From the IMG/VR virus record IMGVR_UViG_3300031992_000007, positions 128,001 through 192,000 of that record: a stretch of 64,000 nt of DNA. One strand, written 5' to 3'. The notes beneath the pieces were generated by a model, which was not told where the DNA came from, did no database searches, and worked only from the letters and a program-made list of their open reading frames with translations. Positions 11,639 through 16,295 of the stretch are shown piece by piece; the stretch's first letter is position 1, and each line of letters starts with the position of its first letter. The position numbers and the translations under genes were made by a program. This stretch comes from a virus. Its lineage: Duplodnaviria > Caudoviricetes.

Positions 11639-11767
11639 GTTTGTATCTCCTGTTTGAGGTTTATGGTTTATGACACCTGAGTAATGTATACGTGAAGAAA
11701 TTCGATTAACACGTCTTTAAACTTTTACATGTCTGCTTTATGTTTATGCTTAACTGGAGGACGACAA

Positions 11768-11965
11768 ATGTGGGGATCTGAACTTCACTACGCTATCGAG
11801 ACTGTTGAGCTCACTTGCCCTAATGATGACTACCTCGATATTCTGTTTAGACAGGATCAAGAGACCTTTAAACGTCGTAGTGATGAGTTGTCAGAACAAG
11901 CACACTTCCTTAGGAAGAAGTGGCTCCCATCCAGACCCAAGAAAGTAAGATGGAGAAAGGGATAA
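11768..11965 (+). CDS. Small hypothetical protein
   Basis: SD GGAGG before ATG 11768. Confidence 0.6.
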   Translation: MWGSELHYAIETVELTCPNDDYLDILFRQDQETFKRRSDELSEQAHFLRKKWLPSRPKKVRWRKG

Positions 11966-11968
11966 ACC

Positions 11969-12184
11969 ATGCCTGTATCACCTGTTCGTGTTACCTTCGT
12001 CTTCCATGACGATGAGCAACTGCACCATTTCCTGGATAAAAATAACATCGACACCTATACTTATAATTGGAAGAAGGGTGAATACCTGATCGATTTGTCA
12101 GGCGATGTTAAAGAGTCGATCAAAACTGTTGCGGCGGAACCTGTCAAGGAACAACCTGCCTCAGTGGTTAGCGAGTTCATCTAG
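11969..12184 (+). CDS. Small hypothetical protein
   Basis: Closely follows the previous ORF; normal composition. Confidence 0.6.
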   Translation: MPVSPVRVTFVFHDDEQLHHFLDKNNIDTYTYNWKKGEYLIDLSGDVKESIKTVAAEPVKEQPASVVSEFI

Positions 12185-12655
12185 TGATTTCAACAGTACG
12201 CATCACCATGTAGCGAAAGCTACCAGATGTTGCGGGCTCTGACCTATCAGGTAGTGCTGTAGGTTGCAAACTCAGCACAGCTATTGATAGGTGCCTTAGA
12301 CCGATGGGCTCGACTCTCGCGGTAGCCTTAGGCTTGGCGGGAGATGAGTCAATGTACAACATAACCACACAGTTCATGTCGCCTAAGAAAGTGACTTGCA
12401 GGTGACAAACTGTATGTGGAGTGAGTACAATGAGACCATGGGAAGACGACGCGGCAGCAATCACTAGCTTCATGCGTCTATCGGTAGGCTTTACCCGTGG
12501 TTTCCATTAAGTGGAAAGTGGTTCACTTACACCGTGTTGGGACCGAACGAGCCGAACCTAAAGTCGGAAATAGAACACGGTTAGATCCGCAGGGTGTTCG
12601 AATACGCTCTGCTAATGCTTCGCGGGAGTTCGTGAATTGCAACTCCTGCACCCCA
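12181..12655 (+). ncRNA. Large ornate ncRNA candidate 2 (~475 nt)
   Basis: Closing helix CTAGTGATT 12181-12189 / AATCACTAG 12459-12467; TAGC-GAAA-GCTA tetraloop; T-loop hairpin GCAGGGTGT-TCGAAT-ACGCTCTGC; ends ...CACCCCA. Confidence 0.65.
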
Positions 12656-12660
12656 TATAC

Positions 12661-12794
12661 GACCACGCACCACGGTTGGTAAATGGTTTTGAGGATGCGT
12701 TATGATTCGTCCATGCTAGCTGGCGGATGAGCAGAGTACTCCTTAACGTATCTCTCTGACTTTTTAGACAGTTCGAATCTGTCATGCGTGGTCA
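12661..12794 (+). ncRNA. Expanded tRNA-like RNA A (134 nt)
   Basis: 9-bp acceptor GACCACGCA/TGCGTGGTC+A; D-loop-like GTTGGTAAA; T-arm GACAG-TTCGAAT-CTGTC; long branched stem replaces the anticodon arm. Confidence 0.75.
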
Positions 12795-12800
12795 CCCTAT

Positions 12801-13070
12801 CGATGTGGACTGGTGGAAGCAGATGAACACTATCCGGCTGCGATGCTGGACGAGGGACAAGAGGCTCATTTAGGCAATGTAGAATTGCCTTTGAGGTGAG
12901 TACTGGTGTAACACTCTCAGGCAGACACTATCTTGAAAGCTGCGAGTTGATCACATACACAGAAGATCGCATCAGCTGTGTGTGGTCGGGATGAACGGTT
13001 CGCAGTGAGTGAGAGACCGTGGCGGTACGGCAACGACGCCCACTATTGGTTCGAGTCCAATGCACATCGT
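12801..13070 (+). ncRNA. Expanded tRNA-like RNA B (270 nt)
   Basis: Acceptor CGATGTG/CACATCG; D-arm-like CTG-GTGGAAG-CAG; T-arm ATTGG-TTCGAGT-CCAAT; about 210-nt multi-hairpin insert. Confidence 0.75.
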
Positions 13071-13084
13071 CCCTTTCAATTTCT

Positions 13085-13370
13085 TGTCGGTCGATCAAAA
13101 AGAAAAGAGACCGCTACGGCGATCCTTCTCCTGCATGTAGTATACTTCATCGGAATAGTAAGCGCCAATGTTTGTCACTGTGCATGTATTTTCGATCGAC
13201 ATTTTGTCTTCTCCAGCTGTCGCAATGCATGGCGATAGATGGAAAGTGGAACAACCGAACCTAATCGGTGTAGCCCCTATCCCAGTAGAGGAAGCTGAGG
13301 CGAAAACAAACCCTGTTCGCAGGTCAGTTGAGATGAGTGGCGCCATCTTGTAAAAACTATGCCGGCCTTT
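13085..13370 (+). ncRNA. Possible further structured RNA
   Basis: GTCGATC/GATCGAC helix, CTGTCGC/GCGATAG hairpin; shares TGGAAAGTGG...CCGAACCTAA..TCGG module with ncRNA 2. Confidence 0.4.
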
Positions 13371-13397
13371 CAACAACAAACAAACCAAAGGTGACAC

Positions 13398-13628
13398 ATG
13401 AGTAAATTGAAGCCGCCTGGTGTAAAACTTAAGATCACTGACTGCTCTAAGATCGATGGTGCGACTCCCATGACATTCATGTGTTCTCCACGCGGACCTG
13501 TGATAGTAAACTCTCCGGAAGAGTTTGACGACCTAACTGGTGAACCGCGTGGAACTACAAGGAAGATGATTCGTGCAACTGGAGCGAGACGTATATCGAT
13601 GATCGGTCGCATAAAGGTACCATCTTGA
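13398..13628 (+). CDS. Small basic hypothetical protein
   Basis: SD AAAGGTG; Arg/Lys-rich C-terminus. Confidence 0.6.
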   Translation: MSKLKPPGVKLKITDCSKIDGATPMTFMCSPRGPVIVNSPEEFDDLTGEPRGTTRKMIRATGARRISMIGRIKVPS

Positions 13629-13644
13629 TTAAGGAGGACTTTAA

Positions 13645-14442
13645 ATGAACCAGAAAGAGTTTGAAGATCACCTTACTCAGTGGATCAGAAGTATCAACTC
13701 GCATGAGGTCAGTGAGATTAAAGCCTTTACTGAGCTCGATAAGCTAATGCACGAGATTCCTCAGTGGGGCGATGAATCCATTGTGCCTGCAGACAGTAAC
13801 CTACTGCATTTGTATCGCAATCGCACTGTATTTTGGTTACATGCAATATCGTTAACACAGGTTGAACACACCTTTGTTCTTACTGGCGCTAAATCGAACG
13901 GTGAGTGCGGATACGTATATGTTGGACTGCCAACAAGTGTAGTTGAAACAGGACTAAAGGCGTACTTTAAGCAACGCCAAGAGAAACTGAAACTTGAACA
14001 AGGAAAACCAATGTCAAAAGTAAAACTCGGATTCAAGAAACTCGATCCTAAAGCACAGCTTCCGAAGTACGCCCACGAGGGTGATGCTGGTATGGACGTG
14101 TTTTCTCTGCACGATGTTGAGCTTCCTCTCAACAAGCCTGTCATTGTCAAGACAGGCATTGCTGCAGAGATACCTGACGGTTACGAACTCCAGGTCCGTC
14201 CTAGGTCAGGGTTCGCCGCCAAAGGCATCACTGTTTGGAATGCTCCTGGCACCATTGATTCTAAGTATCGTGGTGAGATTGGCGTGATACTGTTCTCCAC
14301 TGTTCCTGTTTATCGGGTCAATAGTGGAGATAAGATCGCCCAGCTCGTTCTTGCTCCTGTAACCTTCGCTGAACCTTACGAGGTCCATGAGCTTTCTGAA
14401 ACTGATCGTGGCACTGGTGGATTTGGTTCCACAGGGAGATAA
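13645..14442 (+). CDS. dut: Trimeric dUTPase with ~120-aa N-terminal extension
   Basis: Motifs AGMDV, PRSG, GTIDSKYRGEI, KIAQLV, RGTGGFGSTG. Confidence 0.95.
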   Translation: MNQKEFEDHLTQWIRSINSHEVSEIKAFTELDKLMHEIPQWGDESIVPADSNLLHLYRNRTVFWLHAISLTQVEHTFVLTGAKSNGECGYVYVGLPTSVVETGLKAYFKQRQEKLKLEQGKPMSKVKLGFKKLDPKAQLPKYAHEGDAGMDVFSLHDVELPLNKPVIVKTGIAAEIPDGYELQVRPRSGFAAKGITVWNAPGTIDSKYRGEIGVILFSTVPVYRVNSGDKIAQLVLAPVTFAEPYEVHELSETDRGTGGFGSTGR

Positions 14443-14444
14443 TC

Positions 14445-14681
14445 ATGGCAACAGTAACAGATAGGATCAAGAACCTTCTTGTTGACCAACTGGGGTTGAA
14501 CAAGGAGGAGGTCGAAGATACGTCCAAGTCGTGGTCTGACCTTGGTGCTGATGAACTTGACATCGTTGAGATCATTATGGCTTGCGAAGAGGAATTCAAC
14601 GTTACCATCTCCGAGGAAGAATCGGACAATGCCACGACGGTCAACAAACTCATCGAGACCATCGAGTCCAAGCTGAAGTAA
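14445..14681 (+). CDS. Acyl carrier protein homolog lacking the phosphopantetheine serine (DLGADELD)
   Basis: 78 aa, acidic, ACP pattern DLGAD-x-LDIVEIIMACEEEF; codon GAA at 14553-14555 where Ser is invariant. Confidence 0.9.
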   Translation: MATVTDRIKNLLVDQLGLNKEEVEDTSKSWSDLGADELDIVEIIMACEEEFNVTISEEESDNATTVNKLIETIESKLK

Positions 14682-14684
14682 ATT

Positions 14685-15325
14685 TCCTGGTATACTGGAC
14701 ATCCCAGGCAGCTCCGTAGCCATTTAATTCCCTTGATGGTTATTGGACCTGAAGTCCCCAAAGCGAGCACCGATCTTGTTCGTTAGAGCCGGATCGGTGG
14801 GGATGAGGTGTAGGTGCCCTCCTCGAGTATTGACGGGTAGTAGGTCGAGGCTTAGCCGCCTGACGATCGAATCCGTGGTTGCTGCGACAGTATTTGAGTC
14901 TGATCTTCCTGTCGAGATGCAATACTGAAGGATCAACTTGTTAGTACGTTATGCCTCGCGTCGAACCTATCGCCTCTACCTCGTAGAGGGGTCTAGTAGA
15001 CGGATCTCATTCTTAACCCATGATCTGGCGAGTATGGAAAGAAAGCTGGAGGAAAGTTAAGTCACCATCTCGGAACTATTCGCAGATGGACACCTCGTGA
15101 GATCGACTAACGAAAGTAAAAATTAAGGCAATGAGGTCATCGATTTCAAGGAGCTTGTTTAGAAACGGACAAGGCTTAGGCCGAAATGTAAAGTAGAGAG
15201 TTACCTCGATTAGGTATTGCATTAGTAGTGGCGAGCGAAAGTTGCTAGTTCTCATGATGTCTGAGAGCGACTCGAAATCAGAGTAGGGTGGGTAGCGCGT
15301 GGTTATCTAAACAAGTTCTACTAGA
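14685..15325 (+). ncRNA. Large ornate ncRNA candidate 3 (~640 nt) containing a 23S-rRNA-like motif
   Basis: No ORF; helices 14992-15000/15317-15325 and 15151-15163/15306-15318; many hairpins; AGTAGTGGCGAGCGAA at 15224-15239. Confidence 0.7.
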
Positions 15326-15326
15326 A

Positions 15327-15455
15327 CGCTGTATGACTGAGGTGGACTAAGGTTGGCGGACGGATTCGGAAGGCCGTCTCTGCACAAGACCGTGGATGGT
15401 ATGCACCACGATGCCTGGCTGAAAATGCCCGTGGGTTCGAATCCCACTGCAGCGA
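15327..15455 (+). ncRNA. Expanded class-II (Leu/Ser-type) tRNA-like RNA C (129 nt)
   Basis: Acceptor CGCTGTA/TGCAGCG+A; D-arm ACT-GAGGTGGACTA-AGGT; variable arm GGC-TGAAAAT-GCC; T-arm GTGGG-TTCGAAT-CCCAC; anticodon arm replaced by two hairpins. Confidence 0.8.
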
Positions 15456-15459
15456 TCAT

Positions 15460-15535
15460 TCCAACTTAGCTCAGTTGGTAGAGCGCCGCACTGTTAATGC
15501 GGTGGTCCCAGGTTCGAGTCCTGGAGTTGGAGCCA
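15460..15535 (+). tRNA. trnN: tRNA-Asn(GTT)
   Basis: Canonical 76-nt cloverleaf: TCCAACT/AGTTGGA, anticodon loop CT-GTT-AA, T-loop TTCGAGT, encoded CCA. Confidence 0.97.
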
Positions 15536-15545
15536 ACTTCCATAT

Positions 15546-15707
15546 CGTTGTCTAGTCCAGTACGTAGCTGGGGCCGCCTGTTTCAGCGGCTGTCTAGAGA
15601 GAAGGTGCACGTAGTATCTCTGGACCATAGAGCGTCAGCTTAAGGACTTCTGTGTAAACAGAACACCCTGGGTAATCGGTTCGGTTAAACTCCCTCGGCG
15701 ACGACCA
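15546..15707 (+). ncRNA. Expanded tRNA-like RNA D (162 nt) ending ACCA
   Basis: Acceptor CGTTGTC/GGCGACG+ACCA; D-like hairpin; GCCGC-CTGTTTCA-GCGGC arm resembling the tRNA-Asn anticodon arm; extra hairpins; T-arm degenerate. Confidence 0.6.
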
Positions 15708-15726
15708 ATACATTAAGGAGGAGCTC

Positions 15727-16095
15727 ATGAACATCACTCAAGGAATTTACGCCGGATGGAATATAGTGGTACACATGATCCCGCAGACTTCTGGACAGAT
15801 AGCTGTTAGCGCGAGATCGACCATCGATAAATGGAGGCCAGTGTTCTGTGAGAAGATAACGGTAGATCAAATCAGGTCTGCATTTAACATTACTGGTGAA
15901 GACTTTGGTTTCGTTAATATCCTCGAGCGCACAGCTGACAACGAAAAGGAATTCGGTTTTCAGTGGACATTCATGTTCGACAGACTTAGTGGAAAGATGT
16001 CGCAATACGAATTCCTGTCGTGCATATTCAAAGGCATCGACAAACTTAACGCCTTTATACGAGAGAATCTCGGTGAACAAACATCAAAGGAGTAA
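15727..16095 (+). CDS. Hypothetical protein
   Basis: Strong SD AAGGAGGAG. Confidence 0.75.
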   Translation: MNITQGIYAGWNIVVHMIPQTSGQIAVSARSTIDKWRPVFCEKITVDQIRSAFNITGEDFGFVNILERTADNEKEFGFQWTFMFDRLSGKMSQYEFLSCIFKGIDKLNAFIRENLGEQTSKE

Positions 16096-16097
16096 TC

Positions 16098-16295
16098 ATG
16101 GCGAACAAACCCGCACCTAAGAAAGAAGCAGCGCCTGCGGCTAAGAGCAAGAAGCCGCATTTCAAAGGCATCAACCACCCGAGGAACATCCACAAAGGAT
16201 TCCGTGGAAGTGGCAATGGTCAGCTGATCAAAGCTGCTCTTGAAGCACAGAGACGGAAACCTGTCGCTCCAGTCGCCTCTTCTACTAAAGAGTAA
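16098..16295 (+). CDS. Small basic protein
   Basis: SD AAGGAG; K/A/P-rich; UUCG terminator hairpin follows at 16314-16339. Confidence 0.7.
   Translation: MANKPAPKKEAAPAAKSKKPHFKGINHPRNIHKGFRGSGNGQLIKAALEAQRRKPVAPVASSTKE

What the first reader, a model, noticed from the sequence alone, without database searches (positions are those of the whole stretch)
12661..15707. A set of four giant tRNA-shaped RNAs with intact ends but rebuilt anticodon/variable domains
Seen: elements A (12661-12794), B (12801-13070), C (15327-15455) and D (15546-15707) each close with a 7-9 bp acceptor stem plus discriminator. A-C have canonical T-arms (TTCGAAT/TTCGAGT loops) and D-loop-like segments; D ends in encoded ACCA. 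They are 129-270 nt because unrelated multi-hairpin domains replace the anticodon arm (A, B, C) or expand the variable region (D). They are packed like a tRNA operon around a normal tRNA-Asn. No group I/II intron core is visible in the inserts. Inference: a family of tRNA-scaffolded ncRNAs, matured by RNase P/Z, that could be decoys for tRNA-targeting defences (PrrC/RloC/PARIS-type nucleases), ligands for synthetases or EF-Tu, or carriers presenting an RNA domain. This is the best candidate for an undescribed system here.
Basis: partly seen in the sequence, partly recalled or inferred. Interest (0 to 1): 0.88.

Follow-up and report, generated by a model that had tools for sequence, protein, structure and literature searches.

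The report
Oversized tRNA look-alike genes in jumbo phage
A giant phage with only one ordinary tRNA gene also carries three RNA genes that keep the outer frame of a tRNA around a large extra middle section, plus a fourth, weaker relic; they resemble phage T4's "species 1" RNA, whose role has never been found.

Summary
A (12661-12794), B (12801-13070) and C (15327-15455) each have a perfect T arm with a TTCGAAT or TTCGAGT loop. Each also has a 7-9 bp closing acceptor stem and a D-arm-like segment with GG. None has a usable 7-nt anticodon loop.

ARAGORN and Rfam call only tRNA-Asn in the whole 265-kb phiKZ-like genome. D (15546-15707) differs from the others. Its 5' half runs colinear with tRNA-Asn and it ends in ACCA, but it has no T arm.

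Tests found no group I core and no splicing endonuclease, RtcB, RNA ligase, Ro or CCA-adding enzyme gene. The inserts are not repeated elsewhere in the genome.

The best reading is non-decoding, tRNA-derived RNAs matured like tRNAs. They have the same build as T4 species 1 RNA (rnaC) and as an unannotated 127-nt RNA I found in Klebsiella phage Mineola, but share no sequence homology with either.

No homologue of A-D could be obtained, so covariation and expression remain untested. A decoy or ligand role is speculation.

This scan has reported the same class before, in at least eight other phage genomes. Verdict: a real feature, a new variant of a known but unexplained kind, of moderate interest.

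The parts
12661..12794 (+). Element A, 134 nt. It has a 9-bp acceptor-like stem and a D-arm-like CCA/TGG stem with an 11-nt loop CGGTTGGTAAA. A long irregular hairpin of about 80 nt (12680-12766) sits where the anticodon and variable arms would be. The T arm is at 12767-12783 and the tail reads ACCC.
   Evidence: Fold z-score -4.1; acceptor pair probabilities 1.0. The D loop shares the 8-mer TTGGTAAA with T4 tRNA-Leu. Not called by ARAGORN at default settings or by Rfam.
12801..13070 (+). Element B, 270 nt. Parts in order:
- 7-bp acceptor stem
- D-arm-like CTG GTGGAAG CAG (12810-12822)
- multi-hairpin insert of about 170 nt
- anticodon-like stem ACGGT/ACCGT (12995-13020) with a 16-nt loop containing GAG
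- long variable-arm-like hairpin (13021-13040)
- T arm 13045-13061
- tail TCCC
   Evidence: ARAGORN with introns allowed reads it as tRNA-Leu(GAG), either with a 181-nt insert (12801-13072) or as a shorter 95-nt version (12975-13069) with a 9-nt loop insert. The 5' boundary is uncertain (89/300 shuffles).
15327..15455 (+). Element C, 129 nt. It has a 7-bp acceptor stem directly abutting the T stem, then T8 G9. The type II-like D arm is ACT / 12-nt loop with GG / GGT (15336-15353). Three hairpins follow: 15359-15378, 15391-15410 and 15417-15429. The T arm is at 15431-15447, the discriminator is A, and TCA follows.
   Evidence: This is the only element that passes the strict tRNA register (offset 0). 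ARAGORN at the 90% threshold reads 'tRNA-Gly(GCC)' with a 53-nt insert at 31/32, and that product is a poor tRNA.
15460..15535 (+). Canonical tRNA-Asn(GTT) with encoded CCA. It is the only tRNA in the genome.
   Evidence: 73 bits.
15546..15707 (+). Element D, 162 nt. It has a 7-bp closing stem with two G-U pairs, then TA. Next come a D-arm-like hairpin and a hairpin GCCGC-CTGTTTCA-GCGGC that mimics the tRNA-Asn anticodon arm. About 100 nt of further hairpins follow. There is no T arm. It ends in ACCA, 10 nt before the Shine-Dalgarno sequence of ORF 15727.
   Evidence: The alignment to tRNA-Asn positions 8-48 is in the same register (z 2.7; 9/500 shuffles reach it).
15154..15316 (+). Context: a conserved structured RNA module directly upstream of C. 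It is the only part of the locus with a homologue elsewhere (L019:1637-1776).
   Evidence: The 30-nt and 30-nt cores are conserved. The closing 9-bp stem differs entirely in sequence but still pairs: CTTGTTTAG/CTAAACAAG here, AGAGACATC/GATGTCTCT in L019.
12589..12655 (+). Context: a hairpin capped by a TTCGAAT-containing loop (12589-12612), and a 9-bp hairpin (12622-12649) followed by ACCCCA, just upstream of A.

Best explanation
A, B and C are genes for non-decoding, tRNA-derived RNAs. Each keeps the 'top half' of a tRNA: the acceptor helix, the T arm, and a D loop with GG to form the elbow. The anticodon region has been replaced or interrupted by 50-170 nt of unique hairpins.

Inferred mechanism: they are transcribed on the + strand together with their neighbours, including tRNA-Asn and the other structured RNA modules of the two roughly 1-kb gene-free stretches. 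Host RNase P cuts them out at the 5' side, and host 3'-processing plus CCA addition finishes the 3' side. They then persist as stable RNAs of about 130-270 nt. The tRNA frame would provide processing, stability and perhaps recognition by tRNA-binding proteins, while the insert carries the specific activity.

C, and less clearly A, has the anticodon-independent features that LeuRS uses: A73, a G18-G19-type D loop and, in C, U8/A14. Charging is therefore conceivable.

D is a separate case: a remodelled copy of the tRNA-Asn 5' half that has lost its T arm.

Shown here: the anatomy, the absence of an anticodon loop, the absence of intron signatures, and the analogy in build to T4 rnaC. Inferred: transcription, processing, stability and any function.
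For: 1. The only four TTCGA[AG]T T arms in 265 kb lie here on one strand. Three of them are not tRNAs by ARAGORN or Rfam.
2. The acceptor stems are perfect, with pair probabilities of 0.8-1.0, and spacing is tRNA-operon-like: A to B 6 nt, C to Asn 4 nt, Asn to D 10 nt.
3. A folds far better than shuffles (z -4.1), as T4 rnaC does (z -4.6).
4. The inserts are unique in the genome, so they are not mobile repeats.
5. T4 rnaC (139 nt) has the same T arm plus closing helix with hairpins between, and sits 6 nt from rnaD in the tRNA cluster. It is a real late stable RNA of unknown role (PMC3014915, PMC9697503, PMC2330249).
6. Phage Mineola holds an unannotated 140-nt rnaC homologue and a 127-nt RNA of the same top-half build, with acceptor, TG, a GAAATCGGTAGA-type D loop and a T arm.
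7. The locus is under RNA-level selection in this lineage. The module upstream of C is conserved, with a fully compensated closing stem, in L019, where normal tRNA-Lys and tRNA-Val and a T-arm minihelix follow it.
8. An 82-kb relative has gene-free gaps of 1.05 and 1.3 kb at the same two positions.
9. Identical sequence was assembled independently in two other samples, colinear with the genome.
10. LeuRS does not need the anticodon arm (PMC2377443).
Against: - No homologue of A-D was found, so there is no covariation or conservation evidence for the elements themselves.
- There are no expression data.
- C and D fold no better than shuffles (z -0.8 and -1.8), and B only modestly (z -2.3).
- The closures of B and C are not individually significant.
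- A and B have 1-3 extra bases between the T stem and the acceptor strand, and A lacks a normal 8-9 linker. This could impair RNase P, CCA-adding enzyme or synthetase recognition.
- D lacks the T arm, which does not fit a 'top half kept by selection' rule.
- D-arm type assignment by sequence is not discriminating.
Confidence: 0.5

Rival explanations
1. Decaying pseudo-tRNAs. A former tRNA array (Leu- or Ser-type genes and a second Asn gene) was wrecked by insertions and duplications and has no function. The intact T arms and acceptor stems only reflect how recent the damage is.
For: - D has lost its T arm but keeps an Asn-like 5' half.
- B keeps most of a tRNA-Leu, with a 9-nt slippage-like addition (GTGAG TGAGAG) in its anticodon loop.
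- A and B have non-canonical junctions.
- Relatives carry ordinary tRNAs at the corresponding place (L019), and L001 has 10 tRNAs beside its dUTPase gene.
- There is no evidence of conservation for A-D.
Against: - Three separate genes would each have had to gain 50-170 nt of unique, well-paired sequence while keeping every T-loop and acceptor base pair intact.
- A's insert is strongly structured (z -4.1).
- The inserts are not repeats.
- Phages usually delete dead DNA, yet about 2.2 kb stays gene-free, and a relative keeps gaps of similar size.
- The same build is a genuine stable RNA in T4.
Confidence: 0.22
2. Processing punctuation. The tRNA-like frames serve mainly as RNase P/Z cleavage signals that release or stabilise the neighbouring large structured RNAs or mRNAs, as mascRNA does for MALAT1 and as tRNAs do in mitochondrial transcripts. 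The small RNAs themselves would be by-products.
For: - C abuts the structured stretch of about 640 nt and the conserved module at 15154-15316.
- A follows about 475 nt of closed structured modules, and D ends 10 nt before a ribosome-binding site.
- In phage 201phi2-1 an sRNA lies immediately upstream of the tRNA (PMC11512511).
Against: - A minihelix or a plain tRNA would be enough for cleavage, so this does not explain the large structured inserts.
- No ends have been mapped.
Confidence: 0.13
3. Intron-bearing tRNA genes. The inserts are spliced out to give working tRNA-Leu, tRNA-Gly or similar.
For: With introns allowed, ARAGORN can read B as tRNA-Leu(GAG) and, at a lowered threshold, C as tRNA-Gly(GCC).
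Against: - No group I or group II match even at E 10.
- The inserts (53-181 nt) are shorter than group I introns and sit at positions 26-32, not 37/38.
- The predicted products are poor tRNAs, with a weak D stem, an 8-nt variable loop and G-U-rich stems.
- The genome has no splicing endonuclease, RtcB or RNA ligase gene.
- Independent assemblies are colinear with the genome.
Confidence: 0.04

Closest known systems
Bacteriophage T4 species 1 RNA (rnaC, 139 nt; NC_000866 70908-71046), with species 2 RNA (rnaD)
   Same: - It sits in the phage tRNA gene row a few bases from its neighbours.
- It has a canonical T arm (CCGGG TTCGAAT CCCGG) close to the 3' end and a terminal closing helix, with long hairpins instead of an anticodon arm.
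- Its size is about 120-140 nt and it is strongly structured.
- tRNA finders and Rfam do not call it.
- Its function is unknown (PMC3014915).
   Different: - There is no sequence homology: nhmmer gives E 0.7 or worse outside the T loop.
- rnaC's closing helix is imperfect and it has no clear D arm, whereas A-C have perfect stems and D-arm-like segments.
- B is twice the size.
- The host phage is a phiKZ-like jumbo phage, not a T-even phage.
Unannotated 127-nt top-half RNA of Klebsiella phage Mineola (L040:3230-3356), next to tRNA-Arg
   Same: It has a 7-bp acceptor, TG at positions 8-9, a 3-bp D stem with a Leu-type loop, three hairpins in place of the anticodon arm, and a perfect T arm. This is the same plan as A and C.
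   Different: There is no detectable sequence similarity, and it has no literature description that I could find.
Engineered 'tRNA scaffold' RNAs (the anticodon arm is replaced by a cargo RNA to obtain processing and stability in bacteria); from my own knowledge, not checked here
   Same: Same topology: the cargo is inserted in place of the anticodon arm, and the tRNA frame is kept.
   Different: These are man-made. Here the D-arm and T/acceptor junctions deviate from a true tRNA.
tmRNA, and YrlA/Y-RNA tRNA-like domains
   Same: RNAs that reuse the acceptor/T-arm module of a tRNA for a non-decoding role.
   Different: - No tmRNA was called at default settings and there is no tag reading frame.
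- YrlA scores 21 bits against a threshold of 69, and only across the C/Asn border.
- In YrlA the RNA ends lie at the far stem, not at the acceptor.
- The genome has no Ro (TROVE) gene.

Membership tests
Canonical tRNA (Rfam RF00005) | Cloverleaf that scores above the family threshold, with a 5-bp anticodon stem and a 7-nt loop | tested here: not met
   Only 15460-15532 scores (73 bits). A-D give nothing even at E 10, and ARAGORN at default settings finds only Asn. No hairpin in A-C has a U33/R37-type 7-nt loop.
Canonical tRNA (Rfam RF00005) | T arm (5 bp, TTCRANY loop, G53-C61) followed directly by a 7-bp acceptor strand | tested here: inconclusive
   The T arm is perfect in A, B and C. Direct abutment holds only in C; A has 1-3 extra bases and B has 1. 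D has no T arm.
T4 species 1 RNA (rnaC) family | Sequence homology to rnaC | tested here: not met
   An nhmmer profile built from T4 rnaC plus its Mineola homologue gives only T-loop matches, at E 0.7-3.
T4 species 1 RNA (rnaC) family | Architecture and setting: T arm near the 3' end, a terminal closing helix, hairpins instead of an anticodon arm, packed among phage tRNA genes | tested here: met
   Searches compared. Met for A, B and C; not met for D.
T4 species 1 RNA (rnaC) family | Accumulates as a discrete stable RNA cut from the tRNA precursor transcript | not testable with these tools
tRNA with a group I intron | Group I catalytic core; insertion in the anticodon loop; splicing yields a valid tRNA | tested here: not met
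   No Intron_gpI match at E 10. The inserts lie at positions 26-32 and the predicted products are poor tRNAs.
Archaeal-type (bulge-helix-bulge) intron tRNA | Splicing endonuclease and RtcB-type ligase available | tested here: not met
   PF01974 and PF01139 are absent from the phage genome. The phage is phiKZ-like, so a bacterial host is inferred.
tmRNA | tRNA-like domain plus a tag reading frame and pseudoknots | tested here: not met
   ARAGORN at default settings finds none. Only low-threshold 'permuted' artefacts appear. There is no Rfam match.
YrlA / bacterial Y RNA | Rfam RF02553 match and a Ro (TROVE) partner | tested here: not met
   21 bits against a threshold of 69, spanning two different elements. 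The genome has no TROVE gene.
GOLLD / ROOL large ornate phage RNAs | Match to the Rfam models | tested here: not met
   Rfam gave no hit to any family other than tRNA-Asn, at the gathering threshold over the whole window or at E 10 over 12000-16200.

The most novel reading that the evidence does not exclude
A and C are chargeable but non-decoding tRNA mimics. Host enzymes cut them out and add CCA. They could then be leucylated, because LeuRS ignores the anticodon arm. Alternatively they could bind EF-Tu, a synthetase or a tRNA-directed defence nuclease. In either case the phage would use them as sponges or decoys, or as amino-acid donors outside the ribosome. D, with its Asn-like anticodon arm and 8-nt loop, would be a decoy that protects the phage's single tRNA-Asn.
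Probability: 0.1. Interest if true: 0.85.

Novelty: new variant of a known kind. Interest (0 to 1): 0.5.

Why it matters
T4's species 1 and 2 RNAs have been known for about fifty years without a function. This locus shows the same design arose independently in a very distant phiKZ-like jumbo phage: a tRNA top half kept, the anticodon part swapped for a private structured domain. It occurs three times here, in a genome that keeps only one real tRNA. That points to a general, unannotated class of phage RNA that standard tRNA and Rfam searches miss.

If these RNAs are processed and charged like tRNAs, they would be natural 'tRNA scaffolds'. They would also be candidates for interplay with tRNA-targeting defences, synthetases or EF-Tu.

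On present evidence they are a well-formed anatomical case, with no expression, conservation or functional data.

Tried and rejected
**Searches for homologues**
- blastn of 12200-15730 against 50,697 phage records matched only tRNA-Asn and the C T arm.
- IMG/VR scans found no relative with these RNAs. The queries were the dUTPase fusion, the ACP-like protein, ORF 15727 and an RNAP beta subunit.
- L001-L018 share only the dUTPase domain. The five of them checked (the records behind L001-L004 and L006) lack the phage RNAP.
- IMG/VR and JGI scans with conserved RNA motifs, or with D-loop...T-arm patterns from A and C, gave nothing or only chance hits.
- A JGI scan with the alignment of the N-terminal domain of the dUTPase fusion found nothing.
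- Protein searches found three short contigs at 60-66% identity (L019-L021). Only L019 covers any non-coding DNA.
- The flanking ORFs 11969 and 15727 have only identical copies.
- L038 and L039 are 100% identical to the window, so they carry no variation.
- The exhaustive search with the 76-aa protein found an 82-kb syntenic relative (Logan SRR25904988), but its DNA could not be delivered.
- L041 and L042 are too short to help.

**Other attempts**
- Assigning tRNA types by aligning D-arm segments to 26 phage tRNAs was not discriminating.
- Small ORFs inside the gene-free stretches match no PHROG family. The minus-strand ORF 13095-13397 translates to an implausible, Cys/Ser/Thr-rich product.
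- Sigma-70 promoter and terminator scans gave no more than chance.

**Readings considered and dropped**
- tmRNA, Y RNA, GOLLD/ROOL, retron-like or mobile-repeat inserts, and an archaeal intron.
Full report
**Setting.** The window is bases 128001-192000 of a 265,480-bp IMG/VR virus record that CheckV rates as complete. Split multisubunit RNA polymerase beta subunits mark it as a phiKZ-like jumbo phage. It is very divergent: the best cultured relatives share only about 27% identity in one RNAP subunit.

Two gene-free stretches, 12185-13397 and 14682-15726, flank a block of three + strand genes. These are a 76-aa ORF, a dUTPase with a 120-aa N-terminal extension, and an ACP-like protein. ARAGORN and Rfam find a single tRNA in the whole genome, tRNA-Asn(GTT) at 15460-15535.

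I scanned the genome for a 5-bp stem capped by TTCRANN. This gave 12 sites against 4.0 in shuffled genomes. The only four with TTCGAAT or TTCGAGT loops are A, B, C and tRNA-Asn, all on the + strand within 2.8 kb. By proportion, about 0.25 such strict sites would be expected in the genome (my arithmetic).

Each of A-C has an upstream partner for the strand that follows the T arm: 9 bp in A, 7 bp in B and 7 bp in C. These closures are individually weak evidence. Shuffled upstream sequence reaches the same length in 11, 89 and 50 of 300 trials respectively, and in 21 of 300 for the true tRNA. The case rests on four things together: T arm, closure, a D-arm-like segment with GG right after the 5' strand, and tRNA-operon spacing (6, 4 and 10 nt between neighbours).

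Only C has the canonical register, with the acceptor strand abutting the T stem. A has 1-3 extra bases there and no normal 8-9 linker. B has one extra base. D has no T arm at all; it has only a GGTTCGG string with no stem, a closing helix with two G-U pairs, and an encoded ACCA.

**What the parts look like.**
- A has a 3-bp D stem (CCA/TGG). Its 11-nt loop shares the 8-mer TTGGTAAA with T4 tRNA-Leu. An irregular hairpin of about 80 nt follows, and it folds far better than shuffles (z -4.1).
- B has a small D arm, then about 170 nt of hairpins. After these come a 5-bp stem with a 16-nt loop containing GAG, a long variable-arm-like hairpin and the T arm. It is a type II, Leu-like tRNA with two insertions. 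ARAGORN with introns allowed reads it so, in a long form and a short form.
- C has T8 G9 and a 3-bp D stem with a 12-nt loop holding A14-like and GG residues. Three hairpins follow, then the T arm, and the discriminator is A.
- D aligns with tRNA-Asn positions 8-48 in the same register (z 2.7). The match includes TA at 8-9, a D loop AGTACGTA against AGTTGGTA, and an anticodon-arm copy GCCGC-CTGTTTCA-GCGGC against GCCGCA-CTGTTAA-TGCGGT.

No element has a 7-nt anticodon loop of normal form, so none can be expected to decode.

Typing the D arms by alignment to 26 phage tRNAs did not discriminate. 'Leu/Ser-type' is therefore a structural reading, not a demonstrated origin.

**Are the inserts introns?**
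- Rfam finds no group I, group II or any other family in 12000-16200, even at E 10.
- The inserts are short and sit at positions 26-32.
- The 'spliced' products that ARAGORN proposes are poor tRNAs and mostly need a lowered threshold.
- The genome encodes no tRNA splicing endonuclease, RtcB, T4-type RNA ligase, CCA-adding enzyme or Ro protein.
- Two independent assemblies from other samples match 11759-16272 and 11762-15486 at 100% identity and colinearly.
- The inserts are unique in the genome, so they are not mobile repeats.

**Relatives.** I could not obtain any homologue of A-D. The covariation test therefore could not be run.

What the few relatives do show is that this locus is an RNA locus in the lineage.
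- In L019, a Logan contig with about 65% protein identity, the ACP gene is followed by a 140-nt RNA homologous to 15154-15316. Two 30-nt cores are nearly identical. The 9-bp closing stem is completely different in sequence yet still complementary.
- After that RNA come normal tRNA-Lys and tRNA-Val, and then a minihelix of an acceptor-like stem plus a GGTGG CTCGAAT CCATC arm.
- An 82-kb syntenic contig, with 79% identity in the 76-aa protein, has gene-free gaps of 1,053 and 1,304 nt at exactly the two corresponding positions. Its DNA could not be delivered.

**Comparison with what is known.** T4's tRNA cluster contains two stable RNAs, species 1 (rnaC, 139 nt) and species 2 (rnaD, 119 nt). They are cut from the tRNA precursor transcript and their roles are unknown (PMC2330249, PMC3014915, PMC9697503).
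- I fetched them and folded them. rnaC has a perfect T arm near its 3' end, an imperfect closing helix and long hairpins between (z -4.6).
- Rfam does not recognise rnaC or rnaD.
- In the T4-like Klebsiella phage Mineola I found two unannotated RNAs of this build. One is a 140-nt rnaC homologue with a 7-8-bp acceptor, a T arm and a TCCA end. The other is a 127-nt RNA with acceptor, TG, a Leu-type D arm, three hairpins and a T arm.
- A-D share no sequence similarity with any of these beyond the T loop.

A-C therefore work like, but are not homologues of, rnaC.

Earlier notes of this scan describe the same class in at least eight other phage genomes and name the same closest relative. I treat those notes as leads only. 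The Mineola check is my own partial test of one of them.

**Mechanism.** The acceptor/T-arm stack is what RNase P, the 3' processing enzymes, the CCA-adding enzyme and EF-Tu read on a tRNA (established knowledge). Keeping it intact while rebuilding the rest suggests the RNAs are matured and stabilised as tRNAs are.

LeuRS identity rests on A73 and the U8-A14 / G18-U55 / G19-C56 core. Deleting the whole anticodon stem-loop costs only 2.5-fold in affinity (PMC2377443). C fits these features. A fits partly, with A after its stem but C8/G14 instead of U8/A14. B has T at the discriminator position. Charging is thus conceivable but untested.

I put 0.5 on 'functional, processed, non-decoding tRNA-like RNAs', 0.22 on dead tRNA genes, 0.13 on pure processing signals for the neighbouring RNAs, and 0.04 on introns.

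**Verdict.** It is a new variant of a known but unexplained kind rather than an undescribed system. D should be set apart from A-C. The decoy and ligand ideas remain open.

Noticed in passing
window 15154-15316 and L019:1637-1776: A conserved structured RNA of about 140-165 nt lies directly upstream of the tRNA and tRNA-like genes. Its cores GGACAAGGCTNAGGCCGAAATGTAAAGTAG and CGAAATCAGAGTAGGGTRGGTAGCGNGTGG are shared. The inner hairpins vary, and the 9-bp closing stem is fully compensated. It has no Rfam match. In phage 201phi2-1 an sRNA also lies just upstream of the tRNA (PMC11512511).
   Followed up: partly
L019:1966-2010: A tRNA minihelix-like element lies after tRNA-Val in the relative: GATGAAG ... 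GGTGG CTCGAAT CCATC ... CTTCATC, then ACA. About 330 nt of further gene-free structured sequence follows. L001:403 has a similar stray T arm with a 38-nt closure.
   Followed up: no
window 11759-16272 (L038) and 11762-15486 (L039): Two short contigs from other JGI samples are 100% identical to the window and begin within 3 nt of each other, 6-9 nt before the ATG at 11768. Other samples assemble 200+ kb of the phage. The shared start may be a transcript 5' end (metatranscriptome?) or an assembly break. The sample type is unknown.
   Followed up: partly
Logan SRR25904988, 82,387-bp contig (no DNA delivered): This syntenic relative has gene-free gaps of 1,053 nt and 1,304 nt at the same two positions as 12185-13397 and 14682-15726. 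Its dUTPase lacks the N-terminal extension.
   Followed up: no
L040:679-818 and L040:3230-3356 (Klebsiella phage Mineola, NC_055748): Two unannotated tRNA-like RNA genes lie in the tRNA region: a T4 rnaC homologue with a perfect acceptor stem and TCCA end, and a 127-nt Leu-type top-half RNA.
   Followed up: partly
window 12183-12469, 12589-12655, 13071-13397, 14685-15150: The rest of both gene-free stretches folds into several closed multi-hairpin modules. Examples are the closing stem CTAGTGAT/ATCACTAG at 12183/12461, a TTCGAAT-capped hairpin, and a 9-bp hairpin followed by ACCCCA. None matches Rfam. JGI gene calls place small ORFs here (98 aa on the minus strand at 12177-12473; 61 aa at 13168-13353), and these match no PHROG family.
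   Followed up: partly
window 13108-13125, minus strand: A terminator-like hairpin with a T run works only on the minus strand, because its G-U pairs become A-C mismatches on the plus strand. It lies between B and the 76-aa ORF. The overlapping minus-strand ORF looks non-coding.
   Followed up: partly
window 13645-14019 and 14445-14681: The dUTPase carries a 120-aa N-terminal domain of unknown family, conserved at 62-66% identity in three metagenomic relatives (A1). The ACP-like protein reads WSDLGADE where ACPs have the phosphopantetheine serine (peptide pattern).
   Followed up: no
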